From IMG/VR virus record IMGVR_UViG_3300029798_000001: a stretch of 64,000 nt of DNA. One strand, 5' to 3'. Shown piece after piece: positions 37,383-46,286 of this stretch. Under the pieces are notes generated by a model. The model had not been told where the DNA came from. It did not search any database and saw only the letters and a program-made list of their open reading frames with translations. The translations under genes were made by a program, and so were the position numbers. Source of the DNA: a virus. Lineage: Duplodnaviria; Caudoviricetes. Each line of letters starts with the position of its first letter. Position 1 is the stretch's first letter.

Positions 37383-37994
37383 ATGAGAGTAAAGAATTTT
37401 GAGGTCGATTTAGATTCTGTAGAAGATTGCCAAAAGCTAATTAATCGACTTAAAAGTAATATAGGCGAACTTCGAATATTAACACACGGCTCTAAAAAGC
37501 AAAGAGTCCGTTCTGTATTTGAAGCTTGTCAAAAGATATACAATACCGATATCAGCGACTTGTATCGTCATTTAGATTTGGATCCAAACCCGATTTATTA
37601 TGTCTATACACATTCGGAACCTTCTAAAAAGATTGCTATAGGCAAAAACGGTATCAGTACTTTTGCGGCGACATTAGGAATGGAGTTAATTCCGTTCTAT
37701 GTAGGCAAGGGTGTTGGCGATAGAGCTTACGATTTAAACCGCAACGAGACGCATCGTAAAGTAAGACAAAAACTTCAGCAGTTCGGGCAGGAAGTATCTG
37801 TTAAAATATTAAAATCTGGACTTACTGAGATGGGAGCATTAATATTAGAATCTAAATTAATCGATATGTTCGGACTAATAGCTTCGGGCGGTAAATTAGT
37901 AAATTTGGACGAAGGTGTAAATAGTAAAGAACGACGCTTAAAATATAAAGACGAGCTTCGTGAGATAAGTATGTTATATAAGAATTCTGTCTGA
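37383..37994 (+). mobile_element. GIY-YIG endonuclease adjacent to tmRNA
   Basis: YYVY...PFYVGKG..DR...E..LI..FG....LVN; own early promoter at 37348-37377. Confidence 0.7.
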
Positions 37995-38335
37995 AGTTAG
38001 ACTGAAAGCTATGCAAGACGCGGAGTGGTGCCCGCCACCTCCACCACAAGCATACTGTGATGCGTTACCCAGCGTGAAGTTAAGAGGGTGAAAACAGTAT
38101 GCTTTTGATGGGGGTGTATAATCCTTTCGATTGTGTAGGAAGTAAGAATAATTAGGAATCGGTAGGCGATGACCGTATAAATCAAGCAAATCTCGTAAAT
38201 GCAAACGCAAATACAGGCGAAGTAACTGTTTCGGGCAAGGGCGTTAAGTTCTCTGCTCGTACAGCGAAAGCCGAATCTTTCGCAGTTTAATCACCGCGAT
38301 TGCGGAGTTATCCGTAGAAACAGAAAATAACAGAT
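37981..38335 (+). ncRNA. ssrA: Circularly permuted (two-piece) tmRNA
   Basis: Acceptor piece ends CACCTCC-ACCA (38046); hairpin spacer; coding piece starts GGGGGTG (38110) giving G3:U70; CTATGCAA pairs with TTGTGTAG; tag ORF 38201-38290 ANANTGEVTVSGKGVKFSARTAKAESFAV. Confidence 0.85.
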
Positions 38336-38446: not shown

Positions 38447-38785
38447 ATGAAATTAATCACAGCAGTAATCAAGCCCTTTAAACTAGACGAAGTTCGAGAA
38501 GGTCTAGCCGAGGTTGGCATCACTGGGTTAACTGTAACAGAAGTCAAAGGCGTTGGGCGGCAAAAAGGCCATACCGAGTTGTATCGCGGTGCTGAGTATG
38601 TAGTAGATTTTTTACCCAAGGTTAAAGTCGAAGCAATCGTTGAGGAGGGCTTAGTTGATCGTGCTATTGAGGCCATTATCAAATCTTCCAAGACCGGTAA
38701 AATTGGTGACGGTAAGATTTGGGTTACCGCAATTGAAGGCCTGGTTCGTATTCGTACAGGTGAATCTGGAAAGGATGCAGTATAA
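38447..38785 (+). CDS. glnK: Nitrogen regulatory protein PII (GlnK)
   Basis: MKLITAVIKPFKLDEV, GRQKGHTELYRGAEY, GKIGDGKI. Confidence 0.97.
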   Translation: MKLITAVIKPFKLDEVREGLAEVGITGLTVTEVKGVGRQKGHTELYRGAEYVVDFLPKVKVEAIVEEGLVDRAIEAIIKSSKTGKIGDGKIWVTAIEGLVRIRTGESGKDAV

Positions 38786-40161
38786 TGAAAAAATTACTAA
38801 CAGCATTAGCATTGTTCGCAGTATCGGCAGTGGCATTGGCCGCAGATGCTCCGGTGCCTAACCCGGGTAATACCGCTTGGGTATTGACTAGTACAATCTT
38901 AGTAACACTCATGGCTATTCCAGGCCTTGCATTGTTCTATGGTGGACTAGTTCGTAGTAAAAATATGTTGAGTGTGCTCATGCAGACCTTTGTAGTATTT
39001 GCTCTCATGGGTGTTCTTTGGACGGTGTTTGGTTACACACTAGCATTTACAGCAGGTACACCATTTATTGGTAGTATTGACAAGTTGTTCTTGTTGGGTA
39101 TTACTCCGGACTCTGTAGCGGCAACATTTAGTAAAGGTGTTGTTATTCCTGAGTTTAGTTTTGTAGCCTTTCAACTTACCTTTGCCGCAATCACTCCGGC
39201 ACTGATTATTGGTGCGTTTGCCGAGCGTGTTAAGTTTGGCGCCTTGTTGGCATTTATTACCATTTGGTTTATCTTTGCTTACTTGCCCATGGCACACATG
39301 GTTTGGTATTGGGACGGCCCTGATGCTATTACCAGTGCCGCCACATTAGAAGCAGTCACTAATTCAGCAGGCTGGTTGTGGGCCAAGGGTGCTTTAGACT
39401 TTGCCGGAGGTACAGTAGTTCATATCAATGCTGGTATTGCTGGCTTGGTTGGTGCTATCATGTTAGGCCGTCGTGTTGGTCTTGGTAAAGAAAATATGAG
39501 TCCACACTCATTGACACTTACTATGGTTGGTGCCGCATTGTTGTGGGTAGGTTGGTTTGGCTTCAACGCTGGATCTAATCTCGAAGCCACAGGTGTTGCT
39601 GCTCTTGCAGTTGTAAACACAATGGTTGCCACAGCAATGGCTGTATTAAGTTGGTCTGGAGTTGAGAAGTTGTTCAAAGGTAAAGCAAGTATGTTAGGGG
39701 CCGCATCTGGTGCTGTAGCAGGCTTGGTTGCGATTACTCCTGCTGCTGGTTTTGTAGGACCGATTGGTGCGTTAGTAATTGGGTTGGTTGTTAGTCCGAT
39801 TTGTTTTTTCTTTGTTGACAAAGTTAAACGCACATTTGGGTACGATGACGCACTTGATGTATTTGGTATTCACGGTGTAGGTGGTATTGTTGGTGCTATC
39901 CTCACTGGAGTGTTTGTTGCTCCATACCTAGGTGGTACTGGTGTATACGACTATGTGGCCAACAAGGTAGCAGACTTCGATATGGTGGCTCAACTTACAG
40001 CTCAATTATGGGCAGTGGGTACAGCCGTAGTGTTAAGCGGTGTAGTATCCGTAGTAGCATTCAAGTTAATTGACCTAGTCATTGGCCTGCGTGTTCCAGA
40101 AGAAGATGAACGAGAAGGGTTGGACATCACTTCACACGGTGAAACAGCGTATCACAATTAA
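38785..40161 (+). CDS. amtB: Ammonium transporter
   Basis: FYGGLVR, AHMVW, DFAGGTVVH, GWFGFNAGS, DDALDVFGIHG; twin His retained. Confidence 0.97.
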   Translation: MKKLLTALALFAVSAVALAADAPVPNPGNTAWVLTSTILVTLMAIPGLALFYGGLVRSKNMLSVLMQTFVVFALMGVLWTVFGYTLAFTAGTPFIGSIDKLFLLGITPDSVAATFSKGVVIPEFSFVAFQLTFAAITPALIIGAFAERVKFGALLAFITIWFIFAYLPMAHMVWYWDGPDAITSAATLEAVTNSAGWLWAKGALDFAGGTVVHINAGIAGLVGAIMLGRRVGLGKENMSPHSLTLTMVGAALLWVGWFGFNAGSNLEATGVAALAVVNTMVATAMAVLSWSGVEKLFKGKASMLGAASGAVAGLVAITPAAGFVGPIGALVIGLVVSPICFFFVDKVKRTFGYDDALDVFGIHGVGGIVGAILTGVFVAPYLGGTGVYDYVANKVADFDMVAQLTAQLWAVGTAVVLSGVVSVVAFKLIDLVIGLRVPEEDEREGLDITSHGETAYHN

Positions 40162-40283: not shown

Positions 40284-41027
40284 ATGAAAAAAGTACTATT
40301 AGCAATTCTTGCTCTGGCTGGCATTACCGCGGCTCACGCTCAGGTAACTGGCAATTTAGGGTTAGCTTCTGACTACCGCTTCCGTGGTATCAGTCAAAGC
40401 CAAAATGCTCCTGCTGTTCAGGGCGGCGTTGACTATGCTCACTCTAGTGGTTTGTATATTGGTAACTGGAACTCATCAGTTTCTAGCCAAGTATATACAA
40501 ATGGCGCTGGTGTTGAGTCTGACTTGTACGCAGGTTGGAAAAAAGATATTTACAAAGGTCTGACATTGGATGTTGGTTCTTATAACTATTTCTATCCTCG
40601 TGCTACAGCAGCAAAAACTGGTTCAAACTTTGATACTTATGAAGCATTCTTAGGTTTAGGGTATGGTCCTTTAGCTGTTAAGTATAGCCAAACACTGGGC
40701 AACGGTTACTTCGGTACTGTTAATGCCAAAAACTCAAACTACACAGGTGCTGATGTAAATCAATCCTTTGAGCCACTAAGTGATACGTTGAAAGACTTGA
40801 GCTTCCTAGCTCACTATGGTCATACTTCGGTTGCTAATAGTTCTAACTTAAACTACAACGACATGAATGTTGGTCTAGGTTATGTATTGCCAAAAGATTG
40901 GAATATTGCTGCCAGGTACTATACTAATAGTTCAATGACCAGCACTTTCCAAAATGCTAACAATGTAAATGGACAGAAACTTTACAAAAATGCAGTTGTC
41001 GCAACATTGACAAAAACATTTGAATAA
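40284..41027 (+). CDS. TorF-family (TIGR02001-like) putative porin
   Basis: Signal peptide; SDYRFRGISQS..PAVQGG.DY.H.SG.Y.G.W.S, E.DLY.G; terminal KTFE. Confidence 0.85.
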   Translation: MKKVLLAILALAGITAAHAQVTGNLGLASDYRFRGISQSQNAPAVQGGVDYAHSSGLYIGNWNSSVSSQVYTNGAGVESDLYAGWKKDIYKGLTLDVGSYNYFYPRATAAKTGSNFDTYEAFLGLGYGPLAVKYSQTLGNGYFGTVNAKNSNYTGADVNQSFEPLSDTLKDLSFLAHYGHTSVANSSNLNYNDMNVGLGYVLPKDWNIAARYYTNSSMTSTFQNANNVNGQKLYKNAVVATLTKTFE

Positions 41028-42227: not shown

Positions 42228-42420
42228 ATCAAGTAGTAAGTGTTATAGGAAACGAGATCCTTAACTCACTATAAAAAGTTTAAATGGGCGGCCAGTATGA
42301 TGAATCTCCTTGTGTGGAGTGAAAAACTACTGCGTATTAAAGCACATAGTATAGCGACTAAGCTATCACAGAAATGTGTAACTATGTGCTTTAATACACG
42401 CATTCCAAAGAGTGCGTTAT

Positions 42421-42509
42421 GGGCGCTGTTCTCACCGGGGGACTGTAAATCCCTTGCCTTAATATGGTGAGTGGTCGGCGATTAGGTTCAATTCCTTCAG
42501 TGCCCACCA
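42421..42509 (+). tRNA. Atypical tRNA-Tyr(GTA)-like RNA lacking a normally placed D-arm
   Basis: GGGCGCT/AGTGCCC acceptor, 9-nt linker, GGGGA-CTGTAAA-TCCCT arm, AGTGGT segment after the variable arm, TTCAATT loop, ACCA. Confidence 0.6.
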
Positions 42510-42517
42510 TTATATTC

Positions 42518-42562
42518 ATTGACGAGTTGAATGAGTAGGTTCGAATCCTACTGTCAGCACCA
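42518..42562 (+). pseudogene. tRNA minihelix/remnant (acceptor + T arm only)
   Basis: TTGACG/TGTCAG, GTAGG-TTCGAAT-CCTAC, ACCA. Confidence 0.5.
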
Positions 42563-42568
42563 AATATT

Positions 42569-42643
42569 GCCCTATTATCCTTAATGGTAGAGGTCCTGTT
42601 TTGTAATCAGGGTGTGGAAGTTCGATTCTTTCATGGGGCACCA
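42569..42643 (+). tRNA. tRNA-Thr(TGT)
   Basis: Cloverleaf, TT-TGT-AA loop, ACCA. Confidence 0.9.
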
Positions 42644-42773
42644 GATTATTGTTGTTTTTAGCAACAGAATGAATCGGTTGACCCAAAATGGGTAATAGCA
42701 TATAATAGTTGTATATTAAGTAATAAAGTTCATTAACAATTTGAGTAGAATATAAGCACCCTGGGAAGGGTCA

Positions 42774-43008
42774 CCATATTGAAGCATATTACTAACTATG
42801 GCTGGAGACCGACGGGCCTGTACGGTAGTTGATAGTATGTTTCAATATGGTGAGTCGGACAAACGTGTATGGACAACCGGGTAACTGGGGCTAATCCTAC
42901 ACACCGACACCATATTGAAGCATACTGCACTGAGTCGCTATCAGGCAGGAACATAGGGTTTGATCACCCGGGTAGGTTCGAATCCTACTGTAGTGTGTTT
43001 CAATATGG
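42774..43008 (+). repeat. Two copies of a long spacer stem CCATATTGAAGCATA.../...TGTTTCAATATGG
   Basis: 42774-42850 and 42910-43008; the second encloses a tRNA-like fold with a GTAGG-TTCGAAT-CCTAC T arm. Confidence 0.8.
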
Positions 43009-43084
43009 TAAGGTGGCCGAGGGGACCAAGGCAAGTGACTGCAAATCTCTACAACCGGGGGTTCGAATCCCTCTCTTACCTCCA
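43007..43084 (+). tRNA. tRNA-Cys(GCA)
   Basis: CT-GCA-AA loop, TTCGAAT, TCCA. Confidence 0.9.
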
Positions 43085-43199
43085 GAGCATTCCCGATCTA
43101 CTGAACTGGAAAACGGACAGTAAGTGGGAATCAAGTCCGGAATGCAAGCGCGGACCTAGGCACTAAAAAGGCCCTAGGCAACATGCTTCCCATAAATTT

Positions 43200-43276
43200 G
43201 GTTTGTTAGTCGAGTTGGTTAAGACGCCTGCCTGTCACGCAGGAGACCAGGGGTTCGAGTCCCCTACAGACCGCCA
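43200..43276 (+). tRNA. tRNA-Asp(GTC)
   Basis: CT-GTC-AC loop, GCCA. Confidence 0.92.
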
Positions 43277-43280
43277 AATT

Positions 43281-43775
43281 GCTCTCATCGTCTAGAGGCC
43301 TAGGACATCACCCTCAAGTGGTTGACAGCAGGGATAAATACTGTTTATGAGAGCTAAAGATTTTGTAGATATGCAACCGCAAACAAATCTACATGATTTG
43401 ACCCTTGCAGCATGGGTTTTTTATTCTACTACACCCGACAATGTTGACATTGACTTAAAATCTGAACCAATTGATAAATTTATTCCGCAGGCAAAAGGAA
43501 TATGGAATCATTTTAAGAAACAAATCGGCGAGAAGAGAAAAGTAGAGAGTATGATATCAACAATAAAAGCCAATATACCTTTCTCTCTTCCTGTATATGT
43601 TAAATTTAATGATCCTACTTTATACGTAGTAGAAGGAAGGCATCGATTATGCGCTTACTGGTTATCTGGAGCAAAAACTATTCCTGTTGCTTACGTGAAA
43701 CCTATAAGTCAAGATGGATCAAACTTAGTTAAAGCACCGCCTCTGGCACGCTAGGTTCGATCCCTGAGACCGCCA
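43281..43775 (+). pseudogene. tRNA-Glu-type gene split by an inserted ORF
   Basis: 5' half GCTCTCA-TCGTCTAGAGGCCTAGGACA-TCACC (43281-43315); 3' half AGGTTCGATCCC-TGAGACC-GCCA (to 43775). Confidence 0.65.
43347..43754 (+). CDS. ParB/Sulfiredoxin-like domain protein with an MRAKDF N-terminus
   Basis: YVVEGRHRL.AY...G...IPV motif; GATAAATA late promoter. Confidence 0.65.
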   Translation: MRAKDFVDMQPQTNLHDLTLAAWVFYSTTPDNVDIDLKSEPIDKFIPQAKGIWNHFKKQIGEKRKVESMISTIKANIPFSLPVYVKFNDPTLYVVEGRHRLCAYWLSGAKTIPVAYVKPISQDGSNLVKAPPLAR

Positions 43776-43784
43776 AAGTTTTAT

Positions 43785-43859
43785 ACAGCCATCGTCTAAC
43801 GGTTAGGACACCTGGTTTTCATCCAGGCAATCGGAGTTCGATTCTCCGTGGCTGTACCA
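43785..43859 (+). tRNA. tRNA-Glu(TTC)
   Basis: TT-TTC-AT loop, ACCA. Confidence 0.92.
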
Positions 43860-43869
43860 GTTTTACAAT

Positions 43870-43945
43870 CGCAGGGAGGGTCCGGTCACCAGCGGGGTCT
43901 CATAAGCCTTTGCCGTCCTTGGTTCAAATCCAAGCCCTGCAACCA
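43870..43945 (+). tRNA. Initiator tRNA-fMet(CAT)
   Basis: C1:A72 mismatch, G-rich anticodon stem, CT-CAT-AA. Confidence 0.8.
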
Positions 43946-43951
43946 AACAAT

Positions 43952-44027
43952 TCCGCAGTAGCTCAGTTGGTAGAGCGCAAAACTGTTAATTTTGATGTCC
44001 GAGGTTCGAGACCTCGCTGTGGAGCCA
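43952..44027 (+). tRNA. tRNA-Asn(GTT)
   Basis: CT-GTT-AA loop, GCCA. Confidence 0.92.
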
Positions 44028-44034
44028 AAACAAA

Positions 44035-44122
44035 GGAAGGTTGGCAGAGTGGTCGATTGCGTCAGTCTTGAAAACTGAAGGCTGTAACAGGTCCGTGAGT
44101 TCGAATCTCACACTTTCCTCCA
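44035..44122 (+). tRNA. tRNA-Ser(TGA)
   Basis: CT-TGA-AA loop, long variable arm. Confidence 0.92.
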
Positions 44123-44254
44123 GTATAGACCTCTAGGAGCCGGGTCCGGCGGTTAAGCTCTTAACCTAGTAAAATAAACAAGAGTGAGTTCTGCCAGTAA
44201 CTTTCAGTAGGATAAAAGTGTAGCTTGCTACTACTTCACTGGCAACTAATTTAA

Positions 44255-44341
44255 GGAGAGTTGGCCGAGCGGTAAGGCAACAGATTGCTAATCTGTCATT
44301 GGGTAACCGGTGGATAGGTTCGATTCCTATACTCTCCACCA
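44255..44341 (+). tRNA. tRNA-Ser(GCT)
   Basis: TT-GCT-AA loop, long variable arm. Confidence 0.92.
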
Positions 44342-44346
44342 GTAGT

Positions 44347-44420
44347 GCGGGTATGATGAAAAGGTATCCTGAATCCTTGCCAAGGATTATTTGAGAGTTC
44401 GATTCTCTCTACCCGCTCCA
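44347..44420 (+). tRNA. tRNA-Gly(GCC)
   Basis: TT-GCC-AA loop, TCCA. Confidence 0.9.
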
Positions 44421-44426
44421 AACAAC

Positions 44427-44504
44427 GGGTCTGTATGCCGCTTGGCTTCGAACCAAGAGAAAGCTAATGGATACATGCAGGTTCGACCCCTGTCAGACCC
44501 TCCA
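44427..44504 (+). tRNA. Atypical tRNA-Arg(TCG)-like RNA lacking a normally placed D-arm
   Basis: GGGTCTG/CAGACCC acceptor, 7-nt linker, CTTGG-CTTCGAA-CCAAG arm, AGCTAATGGAT segment, T arm, TCCA. Confidence 0.6.
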
Positions 44505-44507
44505 AGT

Positions 44508-44683
44508 TTTGTAAGTGTAGATGTTGAGAAAGTACAGTCCGCAAGACTGTATGAGAGGACGGTACAAGCCCGACCAAATGATAGCTACTCAAGTATCAAC
44601 TATCACTACGTACCTCTGTACCGGGCGCCCTAGTATTAACGGTTAAAATGATAGCGAATGAGTGAGGCGCTATTACTTACAAA
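44508..44683 (+). ncRNA. Candidate ncRNA enclosed by a TTTGTAAGT/ACTTACAAA stem
   Basis: Terminal 9-bp stem; internal hairpin TACAGTC-CGCAA-GACTGTA. Confidence 0.4.
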
Positions 44684-44692
44684 TTAATCAAT

Positions 44693-44894
44693 ATCCCTCC
44701 GTAAAGGATGTAGTAAGGAGCTCTCAGTTCCCTGTATGGTGAAGTAGTAGTTGATCCGAATCGCTCCTTGGTCGGAGTAGATGGTGATACTAAACGCTTC
44801 GTAAACTAAGAAAGTAAAGTCTAACCAACTGCACAATCTTAATACATATAAAGCTCTCCCGAATAACAGTGGTGAAAATCCACAAGGGATGCCA
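44693..44894 (+). ncRNA. Candidate ~200-nt RNA with tRNA-like termini
   Basis: ATCCCT/AGGGAT acceptor-like stem, GTGG-TGAAAAT-CCAC T-like arm, GCCA end. Confidence 0.5.
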
Positions 44895-44895
44895 C

Positions 44896-44974
44896 ACCCG
44901 GTTAGCTCAGTTGGTTTAGTAGCATTCGCTTGATAAGCGAAAGGTCCCTAGTTCGAGTCTAGGACCGGGTACCA
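44896..44974 (+). tRNA. tRNA-Ile(GAT)
   Basis: TT-GAT-AA loop, ACCA. Confidence 0.92.
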
Positions 44975-44981
44975 GTATTAT

Positions 44982-45055
44982 GAGTCTCAAGTGTTACGGT
45001 AGCACATCAGCCTCCAAAGCTGAGGGCCGGGGTTCGACTCCCTGGAGATTCGCCA
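44982..45055 (+). tRNA. tRNA-Trp(CCA)
   Basis: CT-CCA-AA loop, GCCA. Confidence 0.92.
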
Positions 45056-45061
45056 GTCAAT

Positions 45062-45110
45062 GGCGTGGGTAGCAAGGAAAGATAGGTTAAGCCCTAGACC
45101 TGCGTCGCCA
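45062..45110 (+). pseudogene. tRNA minihelix/remnant
   Basis: GGCGTGGGT/ACCTGCGTC stem, TAGG-TTAAGC-CCTA arm, GCCA. Confidence 0.45.
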
Positions 45111-45132: not shown

Positions 45133-45606
45133 ATGAAGTTCAATATTCCACACATAACACAATTTATAGAAGCGCAAGGTCCAAACACTCGTATCTATAT
45201 TGGTGTGGATTCAGAACGTGTTCGCGGTCATGATAAGCAATGGCAAGCGATATACACTGCGGCTATTGTTGTACATATTAATGGTAACAACGGCTGTAAG
45301 TTATTTGGTGAGGTTACTCGTGAACGAGACTACGACCGAGTCGATAAGCCTAATACTCGCTTGATGACCGAAGTGTTCAAGGTAAGCGAACTGTATTTAA
45401 AACTTGCAGAAGTCTTAGAAGGTCGTGCTGTTGAGGTTCATCTTGATCTGAATCCAGACGAGCATCACGCTAGCTCTAATGTGGTGGCACAGGCTATTGG
45501 ATACATCCGCGGCACTTGTAATGTAGAGCCATTGGTTAAACCAAATGGATTTGCCGCAAGTTATGCTGCTGATAGAATGAGAGGTTTGCAGGTTGCTAAC
45601 GGGTAG
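45133..45606 (+). CDS. RNase H-like YkuK/DUF458-family protein
   Basis: IYIGVDS, RLMTEV, EVHLDLN, VKP..FAASYAAD. Confidence 0.75.
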   Translation: MKFNIPHITQFIEAQGPNTRIYIGVDSERVRGHDKQWQAIYTAAIVVHINGNNGCKLFGEVTRERDYDRVDKPNTRLMTEVFKVSELYLKLAEVLEGRAVEVHLDLNPDEHHASSNVVAQAIGYIRGTCNVEPLVKPNGFAASYAADRMRGLQVANG

Positions 45607-45665: not shown

Positions 45666-46286
45666 ATGTTATGCGACTATGGTTGTAGTAAAGAAGCTAA
45701 GTTTACCCTTAAAAACGGAAAAAACTGTTGTAGTAAACGCCCGGCTGGATGCGAAGTGTTAAAGAAAATCAATGCCGATAAAGTAGCATTATCGCACAAA
45801 GAAGGCAGGCACGGGTATACTTACAATCCCAAAAGCAATTGGGCAAAAGGAAAAACCAAACTCGATGATAATAGAATTGGTAGTAGCTATAATCCAGATA
45901 CTCTATTTTCTTATGGTGAAAAGAACTTAGGCTCTATTGTTAGAAAACAAACTCTTATTAAAGAGCGTGGTCATAAGTGCGAATGTTGTAAATTAGAATT
46001 ATGGTTGGATACTCCTATTACCTTAGAACTCGATCATATTGACGGTGATAACAAAAATAATGTCAGAGACAATCTGAGACTATTGTGCCCTAATTGTCAT
46101 TCTAAAACTCCAACTTGGAGGAAGAGAAAGGCACCCGGCGGCAATTCCAAACATAGTGAAGATGCAATGTTAGTTGCAATTAAACAATCGGCTAATATGA
46201 ACGAAGTATTAAAAAGGTTAAATTTAAAGTGGGGTAGCTCTAGCACAATTGCAAGATTGATGTTAAAATATAATTTGAACTTTTAG
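45666..46286 (+). mobile_element. HNH homing endonuclease within the tRNA array
   Basis: CECC..ELDHIDGD..NN...NLRLLCPNCH; CATAAATA promoter; 11-bp hairpin upstream. Confidence 0.85.

What the first reader, a model, noticed from the sequence alone, without database searches (positions are those of the whole stretch)
42421..44504. Two tRNA-like genes with the D-arm missing from its place and a D-loop-like segment after the anticodon arm
Seen: Tyr(GTA) at 42421-42509 and Arg(TCG) at 44427-44504 both have a good 7-bp acceptor, a canonical 7-nt anticodon loop, a T arm and CCA. Both have only 7-9 nt between the acceptor and anticodon stems, and AGTGGT or AATGGAT lies 3' of the anticodon (or variable) arm. 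In this window the array covers all 20 amino acids only if the Tyr-like gene is counted. Inference: a functional arm-rearranged tRNA architecture, possibly evading host tRNA nucleases, or decoys. It differs from the 8/4 and 9/3 allo-tRNAs I know.
Basis: partly seen in the sequence, partly recalled or inferred. Interest (0 to 1): 0.76.

Follow-up and report, generated by a model that had tools for sequence, protein, structure and literature searches.

The report
Phage tRNAs with a transposed D-arm half
Both elements are real, conserved phage tRNA genes (Tyr and Arg) in which half of the D arm has moved to the far side of the anticodon arm. This tRNA design is missed by gene finders, is common in phages including cultured ones, and I could not find it described anywhere.

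Summary
42421-42509 (anticodon GTA) and 44427-44504 (anticodon TCG) have acceptor stems, canonical anticodon arms, T arms and encoded CCA, but no D hairpin in its usual place. A D-loop motif lies 3' of the anticodon arm.

They are not decayed genes. I collected 75 distinct relatives of the Arg element and 79 of the Tyr element from phage and lake metagenome contigs. All stems covary.

In both families the short 5' linker pairs with a segment 3' of the anticodon arm, so a D-stem-like helix encloses that arm, and the D loop (G18 G19, and A20 in Arg) follows it. The order is D-stem 3' strand, anticodon arm, variable region, D-stem 5' strand, D loop, T arm.

The variants sit where relatives carry the canonical gene. 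They almost never share an array with a canonical tRNA of the same anticodon. In six arrays the variant is the only Tyr candidate, because the canonical tRNAs cover the other 19 amino acids.

ARAGORN finds none of the 154. Rfam scores them at or below threshold. GenBank records of Streptomyces and Microbacterium phages leave them unannotated.

Most likely they are working tRNAs with a rewired core. Escape from host tRNA nucleases is plausible but untested. Eight literature searches found no description.

The parts
42421..42509 (+). tRNA-Tyr(GUA) gene of the transposed-D-arm class, 8/4-like branch, A73, encoded CCA
   Evidence: Sequence. 79 homologues aligned (A3). Pair counts. ARAGORN default misses it. 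No Rfam match.
42421..42428 (+). Tyr: acceptor 5' strand (8 nt), pairs with 42498-42505
   Evidence: 8 pairs, 99.7% of cells paired, 7 of 8 pairs with double changes.
42431..42436 (+). Tyr: 5' strand of long-range helix S (CTCACC). It occupies the place of the D-stem 3' strand, directly before the anticodon stem.
   Evidence: Pairs with 42466-42471. 99.2% of cells paired and 4 of 6 pairs with double changes. RNAalifold predicts the helix independently.
42437..42455 (+). Tyr: anticodon arm, 6-bp stem (two G.U pairs at its base), loop CTGTAAA, anticodon GTA at 42445-42447
   Evidence: 100% of cells paired, 4 of 6 pairs with double changes.
42456..42458 (+). Tyr: GCC, putative 5' strand of a variable-arm stem that pairs with GGC at 42477-42479. 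This pairing crosses helix S and so forms a pseudoknot.
   Evidence: GCC/GGC in 77 sequences and GGC/GCC in 2 (L062, L311), one compensatory change. Weakly supported.
42466..42471 (+). Tyr: 3' strand of helix S (GGTGAG), equivalent to the D-stem 5' strand
42472..42482 (+). Tyr: D-loop-like segment TGGTC, then GGC, then GAT. It carries the conserved GG.
   Evidence: GG is invariant in 79 sequences. The segment resembles the D loop of the canonical Tyr of relatives, for example CTGGCGA in L005.
42483..42497 (+). Tyr: T arm, stem of U.U plus 3 bp, loop TTCAATT
   Evidence: the three inner pairs are kept and the outer position is U.U in 77 of 79.
44427..44504 (+). tRNA-Arg(UCG) gene of the transposed-D-arm class, 7/5 branch, U73, encoded CCA
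   Evidence: Sequence. 75 homologues aligned (A1). Pair counts. The only Rfam match is a weak tRNA-Sec hit, 26.1 bits against a gathering score of 47.
44434..44440 (+). Arg: U8 A9, then TGCC (D-stem 3' strand, positions 22-25), then G26
   Evidence: U8 and A9 are invariant in 75 of 75. Position 23 covaries with position 12 downstream. In this window only G44437-C44464 and C44438-G44463 can pair.
44441..44457 (+). Arg: anticodon arm CTTGG / CTTCGAA / CCAAG, anticodon TCG at 44448-44450
   Evidence: The four inner pairs covary strongly. C35 is present in 74 of 75.
44458..44462 (+). Arg: 5-nt variable-loop equivalent AGAAA (family consensus NGAAA)
   Evidence: GAAA is nearly invariant.
44463..44476 (+). 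Arg: GCT (D-stem 5' strand, one G shorter than the family's GGNT), then D loop AATGGATA (A14, G18 G19, A20, A21), then linker CAT
   Evidence: A14 in 75/75, G18 in 73/75, G19 in 74/75, A20 in 72/75, A21 in 73/75.
44477..44493 (+). Arg: T arm GCAGG / TTCGACC / CCTGT
   Evidence: 98.9% of cells paired, all 5 pairs with double changes.

Best explanation
Both elements are genuine tRNA genes, tRNA-Tyr(GUA) and tRNA-Arg(UCG). They belong to a phage-borne architectural class in which the 5' strand of the D stem and the D loop have been transposed from their usual place to the 3' side of the anticodon arm, into or after the variable region.

The D-stem 3' strand stays directly upstream of the anticodon stem. 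The D stem therefore forms by long-range pairing that encloses the anticodon arm. The D loop, with G18 G19, leads into the T arm.

Inferred, not shown:
- This rewiring keeps the stacked D/anticodon arm, the 12-bp acceptor/T arm and the D-loop/T-loop elbow contact. The molecule would then still be L-shaped.
- It would be processed, charged by the host ArgRS or TyrRS, and used on the ribosome.
- A plausible origin is internal duplication followed by loss of both ends, which is how circular permutations usually arise.
- The likely advantage is escape from host defence nucleases that recognise or cut the D or variable region of tRNA. This is the weakest step.
For: 1. Conservation with covariation.
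- Arg type: 75 distinct sequences, 95.5% of cells paired, covariation score 0.79 against 0.21 for shuffles, 0 of 500 shuffles as high.
- Tyr type: 79 sequences, 96% paired, 0.40 against 0.12.

2. The long-range D stem.
- Tyr: 6 bp, 99.2% paired, 4 of 6 pairs with double changes, and predicted de novo by RNAalifold.
- Arg: the 23:12 pair shows AU 29, CG 26, GC 9, UA 4. It ranks 7th of all column pairs by mutual information (1.32 bits), and each column is the other's best partner. It is flanked by two invariant C-G pairs.

3. Tertiary and identity nucleotides are kept.
- U8 75/75, A14 75/75, G18 73/75, G19 74/75, A21 73/75, and the T54-A58 positions.
- The ArgRS determinants A20 (72/75) and C35 (74/75); these determinants are as listed in PMC9976931.
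- All 79 Tyr variants have A73.

4. Positional replacement of canonical genes.
- L004 (variant) and L005 (canonical Tyr) share the same upstream flank up to the gene's first bases.
- The window's Arg variant follows Ser(gct)-Gly(gcc), exactly where L052 and L002 carry a canonical Arg(tcg).
- Streptomyces phage Mildred21 has the Arg(ACG) variant where its relative Jay2Jay has a canonical Arg(acg).

5. Complementarity within arrays.
- 0 of 33 variant/locus pairs share the anticodon with a canonical Arg in the same locus, against 8.1 expected.
- A canonical Tyr is present in 4 of 29 variant-bearing arrays against 43 of 62 related arrays without the variant (Fisher p = 9e-7).
- In six arrays, including the window, Tyr is the only amino acid missing from the canonical set.

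6. Distribution.
- The class is phage-specific: only 4 true hits in 185,579 prokaryote genomes, all in tRNA arrays, three of them on short contigs and one on a 198-kb contig carrying an array.

7. Defence context.
- Septu and Retron-Eco7 PtuAB cut tRNA-Tyr in its variable loop, and phage tRNA-Tyr with a different variable loop resists (PMC13096335, PMC12673091).
Against: - There is no experimental evidence here for transcription, end processing, charging or decoding.
- The three-dimensional fold is inferred from secondary structure and conserved nucleotides only.
- The window's Arg copy belongs to a subgroup whose long-range D stem can form only 2 Watson-Crick pairs. It also has U73 rather than the A/G73 preferred by E. 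coli ArgRS.
- The Tyr T stem is weak (U.U plus 3 bp).
- Some genomes carry the variant together with a canonical tRNA of the same anticodon: Zooman Arg ACG, Jay2Jay Ile GAU, and L062, L353, L372 and L344 for Tyr. The variant is therefore not always the sole supplier.
- The window's whole genome is not held, so a canonical tRNA-Tyr elsewhere cannot be excluded.
- The nuclease-evasion motive has no direct support. The anticodon loops are canonical, so nucleases that read only the anticodon loop would not be evaded.
Confidence: 0.72

Rival explanations
1. They are tRNA-shaped decoys or sponges. They are transcribed and folded but not used in translation. Their role would be to bind or saturate host tRNA-directed nucleases or other tRNA-binding defence proteins.
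For: - The altered core could keep the anticodon-arm bait while changing other properties.
- Arg and Tyr tRNAs are known nuclease targets. For Tyr. Colicin D cutting tRNA-Arg is from my own knowledge.
- Variants sometimes co-occur with a canonical copy of the same anticodon.
- Phage tRNA arrays do hold non-decoding tRNA mimics of the YrlA type (earlier notes of this scan).
Against: - A decoy has no need for a covarying 7- or 8-bp acceptor stem with N73 and CCA, for the aminoacylation determinants A20, C35 and A73, or for a 12-bp EF-Tu-type branch.
- A decoy should accompany the canonical gene. Instead the variant replaces it: 0 of 33 co-occurrences against 8.1 expected, 4 of 29 against 43 of 62, and six arrays that lack only Tyr.
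Confidence: 0.12
2. They are decaying tRNA pseudogenes, left over from rearrangements in a recombination-prone tRNA array.
For: - The same array holds obvious fragments: a 3' minihelix at 42520-42565 and a 3' fragment at 43735-43781.
- The array carries an HNH homing endonuclease gene.
- Contigs of other lakes show the tRNA modules in different orders.
Against: - 154 distinct sequences from many unrelated phages keep every helix through compensatory changes and keep the tertiary nucleotides.
- Identical copies occur in independent metagenomes.
- A 98.7% identical Arg copy sits in an otherwise unrelated phage contig, L082.
Confidence: 0.02
3. The Tyr element is an ordinary cloverleaf tRNA that starts 9 nt upstream, at 42412, with the D arm in its normal place. 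ARAGORN proposes this fold at a lowered threshold.
For: ARAGORN -ps80 reports tRNA-Tyr at 42412-42509 with acceptor GTGCGTT and D arm GGCG/CACC.
Against: - That fold has a mismatch and two G.U pairs in the acceptor stem, a 3-of-4 D stem and no GG in the D loop.
- The upstream flank is unrelated in the other family members, whereas the 8-bp acceptor that starts at 42421 covaries.
- CACC belongs to helix S, which covaries with 42466-42471.
Confidence: 0.02
4. They are tRNA-like RNAs with another role, such as a regulator, a primer or a substrate of a phage enzyme. They would be charged or not, but would not serve general decoding.
For: - The unusual core may create a binding surface for a phage protein.
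- In Jay2Jay the variant lies directly after a nucleotidyltransferase gene.
Against: - Anticodon complementarity with the rest of the array and positional replacement of canonical genes both point to ordinary isoacceptor duty.
- I noticed no gene neighbour shared between the few loci whose surroundings I looked at. Conservation of neighbours was not tested systematically.
Confidence: 0.06

Closest known systems
Canonical elongator tRNA (Rfam RF00005); bacterial tRNA-Arg (class I) and tRNA-Tyr (class II)
   Same: Acceptor stem with N73 and CCA. Anticodon arm with U33 and R37. T arm with T54 T55 C56 and A58. D-loop nucleotides A14, G18 G19 and A21. U8. The Arg determinants A20 and C35, and the Tyr determinant A73. 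A 12-bp acceptor/T branch.
   Different: The D-stem 5' strand and the D loop lie 3' of the anticodon arm instead of 5' of it, so the D stem is a long-range helix around the anticodon arm. RF00005 gives no match at E <= 1 in the window. On relatives it scores 28.7-32.5 bits, against 45-71 bits for neighbouring canonical tRNAs.
(8/4) and (9/3) tRNAs / allo-tRNAs (Mukai et al. 2017, PMC5389517)
   Same: The Tyr type has an 8-bp acceptor stem with a 4-position T stem, a 6-bp D-type helix and a 6-bp anticodon stem. The paper reports 8/4 tRNAs in bacteria and their phages.
   Different: Allo-tRNAs keep a local D stem-loop in the normal position and mostly carry Ser identity (long variable arm, G73 or U73). 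Here the D helix is long-range, the discriminator is A73 and the anticodon is GUA. The Arg type is 7/5.
D-armless mitochondrial tRNAs (for example metazoan mt-tRNA-Ser(AGY); review PMC7609411)
   Same: Only a short connector separates the acceptor and anticodon stems.
   Different: Those tRNAs have lost the D arm. Here a full D-loop motif and a covarying D-type helix are kept, relocated. The context is phage, not organelle.
Circularly permuted tRNA genes (Cyanidioschyzon merolae; PMC3728597) and engineered circularly permuted tRNAs (Pan, Gutell and Uhlenbeck 1991, from my own knowledge)
   Same: The order of tRNA segments along the chain is changed while the same helices can form. The engineered permutants show that the tRNA fold tolerates altered backbone connectivity.
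   Different: Permuted genes are restored to a normal tRNA by processing through a circular intermediate. Here the 5' and 3' acceptor strands are at the gene ends as usual, and the permutation is internal, so it would persist in the mature RNA.
YrlA-type tRNA-like Y RNAs of bacteria and phages (Rfam RF02553)
   Same: They are non-standard tRNA-shaped RNAs found inside phage tRNA arrays.
   Different: YrlA modules have a sealed acceptor end, no anticodon arm and a Ro60-binding handle. The two elements here have free ends with CCA and canonical anticodon loops. RF02553 does not match them.

Membership tests
Canonical cloverleaf tRNA (RF00005) | Acceptor stem closed by the 5' and 3' ends, discriminator base, CCA | tested here: met
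   Arg has 7 bp and Tyr has 8 bp. Both covary. CCA is encoded in the window copies.
Canonical cloverleaf tRNA (RF00005) | Local D stem-loop between position 9 and position 26 | tested here: not met
   Only 7 nt (Arg) or 8 nt (Tyr) lie between the acceptor and anticodon stems. The partner strand lies 3' of the anticodon arm.
Canonical cloverleaf tRNA (RF00005) | Anticodon arm with a 7-nt loop, U33 and purine 37 | tested here: met
   Loops are CTTCGAA and CTGTAAA. U33 and A37 are invariant in the Arg alignment.
Canonical cloverleaf tRNA (RF00005) | T arm with T54 T55 C56 and A58 | tested here: met
   Arg has a 5-bp stem. Tyr has U.U plus 3 bp. The loops match the consensus.
Canonical cloverleaf tRNA (RF00005) | Score at or above the Rfam gathering threshold of 29 bits | tested here: not met
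   There is no RF00005 match at E <= 1 on either window element. Relatives score 28.7-32.5 bits or are not matched.
Canonical cloverleaf tRNA (RF00005) | Aminoacylation and decoding | not testable with these tools
   Needs biochemistry or tRNA-seq. Comparative evidence is indirect.
(8/4) tRNAs / allo-tRNAs (PMC5389517) | 12-bp branch split 8/4 or 9/3 | tested here: inconclusive
   Tyr has 8 plus 4 positions, the outer one U.U, so the feature is met loosely. Arg is 7/5, so it is not met.
(8/4) tRNAs / allo-tRNAs (PMC5389517) | Local D stem-loop with a long stem and a tetraloop | tested here: not met
   The 6-bp helix of the Tyr type encloses the whole anticodon arm.
(8/4) tRNAs / allo-tRNAs (PMC5389517) | Serine-type identity (long variable arm with G73 or U73) | tested here: not met
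   A73 is present in 79 of 79 and the anticodon is GUA.
D-armless mitochondrial tRNAs | D arm lost and replaced by a connector, with no D-loop motif elsewhere | tested here: not met
   The D-loop motif (A14, G18 G19, A21) and a covarying D-type helix are present downstream.
Circularly permuted or split tRNA genes | The 3' half is encoded upstream of the 5' half and the termini are joined by processing | tested here: not met
   The acceptor 5' and 3' strands sit at the gene ends in normal order.
YrlA-type Y RNA tRNA mimic (RF02553) | Sealed acceptor or handle, no anticodon arm, Rfam match | tested here: not met
   The ends are free and carry CCA, and the anticodon loops are canonical. RF02553 does not match at these coordinates.
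tRNA-Sec (RF01852) | Score at or above 47 bits, UCA anticodon, 8/5 branch | tested here: not met
   The score is 26.1 bits on the Arg element. The anticodons are UCG and GUA.

The most novel reading that the evidence does not exclude
A natural class of translationally active tRNAs has a topologically permuted core: the D-stem 5' strand and the D loop are moved into the variable region. The class occurs in class I (Arg, rarely Ile) and class II (Tyr) tRNAs of many phage lineages. It is maintained because it lets phage tRNAs escape host tRNA-cleaving defence systems while they remain substrates of host synthetases, EF-Tu and the ribosome.
Probability: 0.35. Interest if true: 0.93.

Novelty: new variant of a known kind. 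Interest (0 to 1): 0.86.

Why it matters
- The cloverleaf order of arms is one of the most invariant features in biology. A widespread natural tRNA with a rewired core would show that the translation machinery reads shape rather than chain topology.
- It would add a new scaffold for orthogonal tRNA engineering.
- Phage tRNA counts and statements such as 'lacks tRNA-Tyr' or 'lacks tRNA-Arg' are biased, because standard finders miss this class. ARAGORN found 0 of 154.
- The class is present and unannotated in cultured Streptomyces and Microbacterium phages, so charging, structure and resistance to tRNA-targeting defences can be tested directly.
- If nuclease escape is the driver, this is a new move in the arms race over tRNAs between phages and their hosts.

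Tried and rejected
- **Whole genome.** None is held for the window, so a canonical tRNA-Tyr elsewhere could not be sought.
- **Near-identical phage genomes.** A megablast search of GenBank phages found only single-tRNA matches.
- **Tyr type in GenBank phages.** A blastn search in distant mode gave no match.
- **Single-sequence MFE folds.** They do not recover the proposed structures (z-scores -1.1 and -1.9). For the Arg copy the MFE fold pairs TTGGCTT with AAGCTAA. That pairing is not conserved in the family, so I rejected it.
- **ARAGORN with intron or mitochondrial options.** It gave only spurious calls.
- **RNAalifold on the Arg alignment.** It does not predict the 3-bp long-range helix. 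The helix rests on covariation only.
- **Metatranscriptome contigs (runs X19, X20).** Laid on 42300-45100, they come mostly from related tRNAs of other organisms and give no usable cover of either element. They say nothing about expression.
- **Reverse-strand reading.** The reverse complement of the TCG anticodon arm looks like a T arm. This fails for the ACG, TCT and CCT members, and that strand has no CCA end.
- **Intron, splicing or processing back to a normal order.** Any excision removes either the anticodon arm or the D elements, and the gene ends are already the acceptor strands.
- **Earlier notes of this scan.** The sequence look-up found nothing. The word look-up returned only other kinds of tRNA-like RNAs.
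- **Literature.** Eight completed full-text searches and the 2020 review of non-canonical tRNAs gave no description of this architecture. One further search was rejected as malformed. The library is incomplete, so this is absence of evidence only.
Full report
**Context**

The window is phage-like. It has one-strand coding, about 40% G+C, an HNH endonuclease and phage protein families. Its closest relatives are IMG/VR contigs of up to about 345 kb.

The same DNA is found in freshwater and lake metagenomes of several studies. ARAGORN tRNAs between 36.7 and 50.7 kb. They cover 19 amino acids, with no Tyr and no Arg(TCG).

**The observation**

Both elements are as described.

- The Arg element (44427-44504) has a perfect 7-bp acceptor stem, 7 nt, a 5-bp anticodon stem with loop CTTCGAA, a 19-nt segment containing AATGGATA, a 5-bp T arm, U73 and CCA.
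- The Tyr element (42421-42509) has loop CTGTAAA, AGTGGT downstream of the anticodon arm, A73 and CCA.

Rfam gives only a 26-bit tRNA-Sec match to the Arg element and nothing for the Tyr element. ARAGORN reports the Tyr element only at a lowered threshold, as a poor cloverleaf that starts 9 nt upstream.

**Relatives**

- Pattern scans of IMG/VR found the Arg design in about 90 contigs.
- After removing duplicates I aligned 75 Arg-type sequences (A1) and 79 Tyr-type sequences (A3).
- Arg-type anticodons are ACG 35, TCT 25, TCG 9, CCT 5 and GAT 1. A GCG member also exists.
- Only 4 true members occur in 185,579 prokaryote genomes. All are in tRNA arrays, three on short contigs and one on a 198-kb contig carrying an array.
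- In GenBank, 47 phage records hold the Arg/Ile-type design: 44 Streptomyces phages and 3 Microbacterium phages. Nearly all of them have no annotated feature at that place.

**Structure**

Every conventional helix covaries. The new point is a helix between the 5' linker and the segment 3' of the anticodon arm.

In the Tyr type it is 6 bp. The window has CTCACC/GGTGAG, and other members have CTCTGC/GCAGAG, CCCTAC/GTAGGG, CCCAAC/GTTGGG, CCTGAC/GTCGGG and more. It is 99.2% paired, and 4 of 6 pairs show changes on both sides. RNAalifold predicts it unaided.

In the Arg type it is NCC/GGN'. The variable pair is AU 29, CG 26, GC 9 and UA 4. It ranks 7th among all column pairs by mutual information, inside the range of the classical stem pairs, and each column is the other's best partner.

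Read in standard numbering, the Arg type runs as follows:
1. acceptor 1-7;
2. U8 A9;
3. U22 N23 C24 C25;
4. C26;
5. the anticodon arm;
6. a 5-nt NGAAA variable loop;
7. G10 G11 N12 U13;
8. the D loop A14 A15 Y16 U17 G18 G19 A20 N A21;
9. the linker CAU;
10. the T arm.

So the D-stem 5' strand and the D loop have been transposed behind the variable loop. The window's copy belongs to a subgroup of at least 5 distinct sequences in which the 5' strand is one G shorter. That leaves only two possible Watson-Crick pairs.

The Tyr type shows the same transposition. In addition it has an 8-bp acceptor stem, whose 8th pair is GC 62, AU 16 and UA 1. Its T stem is U.U plus 3 bp. A GCC...GGC pair of triplets may be the retained variable-arm stem, crossing helix S as a pseudoknot. 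Two members have GGC...GCC, which is a single compensatory change.

**Is it a working tRNA?**

What is shown:
- Tertiary nucleotides and synthetase determinants are conserved. The determinants are those listed in PMC9976931.
- CCA is encoded in most copies.
- Variants occupy the exact sites of canonical genes in close relatives: L004 against L005 with an identical flank, the window against L052 and L002, and Mildred21 against Jay2Jay.
- Variants are complementary to the rest of the array. For Arg, 0 of 33 share an anticodon with a canonical Arg in the same locus, against 8.1 expected.
- For Tyr, 4 of 29 variant-bearing arrays hold a canonical Tyr, against 43 of 62 related arrays without the variant (p = 9e-7). 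Six arrays lack only Tyr among their canonical tRNAs.
- A structure-based scan of 80 related arrays plus the window found only five such elements, all Tyr(GTA) or Arg(TCG). The window is the only one of these loci with both. A distant 198-kb contig, L311, also holds both types.

What is inferred:
- The L shape.
- Processing, charging and decoding.

Exceptions exist. In some genomes the variant and a canonical copy of the same anticodon coexist: Zooman, Jay2Jay, and four Tyr loci.

**Why it might exist**

Defence nucleases that cut tRNAs are common. Septu and Retron-Eco7 cut tRNA-Tyr in the variable loop, and phage tRNA-Tyr with a different variable loop resists. Phage tRNAs also escape by anticodon-loop changes (PMC10264068).

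A tRNA whose variable and D regions are rebuilt could escape enzymes that read those parts. This is a hypothesis only. The anticodon loops here are canonical.

**Comparison and novelty**

The class is not an allo- or 8/4 tRNA, because those keep a local D stem-loop. It is not a D-armless mitochondrial tRNA, because the D elements are kept. It is not a permuted gene, because the ends are normal. It is not a YrlA mimic, because the ends are free and an anticodon is present.

Eight completed full-text searches (a ninth was rejected as malformed) and a dedicated review gave no description of it. ARAGORN detects 0 of the 154 sequences. Rfam scores the members at or below threshold.

I rate it a new variant of a known kind, with high interest. 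Two caveats apply: function is not yet shown, and the literature check is incomplete.

Noticed in passing
window 37983-38290 (+): Match to the permuted (two-piece) tmRNA family RF04321, 60.7 bits against a gathering score of 47, just upstream of the tRNA array. This suggests a phage-encoded tmRNA.
   Followed up: no
window 38785-40161 and 40284-41027 (+): A full-length ammonium transporter gene (PF00909, E = 9e-112) followed by a Gcw_chp-family gene (PF09694) lies inside the phage genome, between the tmRNA and the tRNA array. These are possible auxiliary metabolic genes.
   Followed up: no
window 42769-42855 and 42905-43003 (+): Two RNAs are each enclosed by the same stem of about 20 bp (ACCATATTGAAGCATA... 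pairing with ...TGTTTCAATATGGT). The second has a perfect T arm (GTAGG TTCGAAT CCTAC) and two further hairpins. That makes it a tRNA-shaped body with a sealed, extended 'acceptor' and no CCA. It recalls the handle-enclosed, YrlA-like cassettes noted earlier in this scan. The first one is 90% conserved in L004.
   Followed up: partly
window 42520-42565 (+): A tRNA minihelix directly after the Tyr variant: a 6-bp acceptor-like stem, a 10-nt linker, a perfect T arm and ACCA, with no D or anticodon arm. It may be a remnant of a displaced tRNA or a minihelix RNA.
   Followed up: partly
window 43281-43357, 43347-43754 and 43735-43781 (+): A tRNA-Glu-like 5' body with a perfect 7-bp acceptor (GCTCTCA/TGAGAGC) has a degenerate T arm and overlaps the start of a 135-aa ORF of no known family. 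A separate tRNA 3' fragment follows that ORF. Contigs from other lakes join 44341 directly to 43281, so tRNA modules are shuffled between strains.
   Followed up: partly
window 45133-45606 and 45666-46286 (+): An RNaseH-like gene (PF04308, phrog_11311) and an HNH homing endonuclease gene lie inside the tRNA array. The RNaseH-like gene is conserved within tRNA arrays of at least 126 IMG/VR contigs.
   Followed up: partly
L082:3294-3371 compared with window 44427-44504: The Arg(TCG) variant is 98.7% identical in a contig that otherwise shares only scattered tRNA-sized matches with the window. This suggests that single tRNA genes are exchanged horizontally between phages.
   Followed up: partly
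L312 (Streptomyces phage Jay2Jay, KM652554 75237-75313): An unannotated Ile(GAU) member of the same architecture lies in the gap right after an annotated nucleotidyltransferase gene. The genome also has a canonical Ile(gat).
   Followed up: partly
L311 (contig CAZLBC010000001.1, 198 kb, binned as Planctomycetaceae) and L309: Contigs that carry dense tRNA arrays with these variants are filed in bacterial MAGs. They are probably phage contigs that were mis-binned.
   Followed up: no
L152:267-488: A group I intron-like match (RF00028, 45 bits, just under the gathering score of 50) lies next to an Arg(TCT) variant.
   Followed up: no
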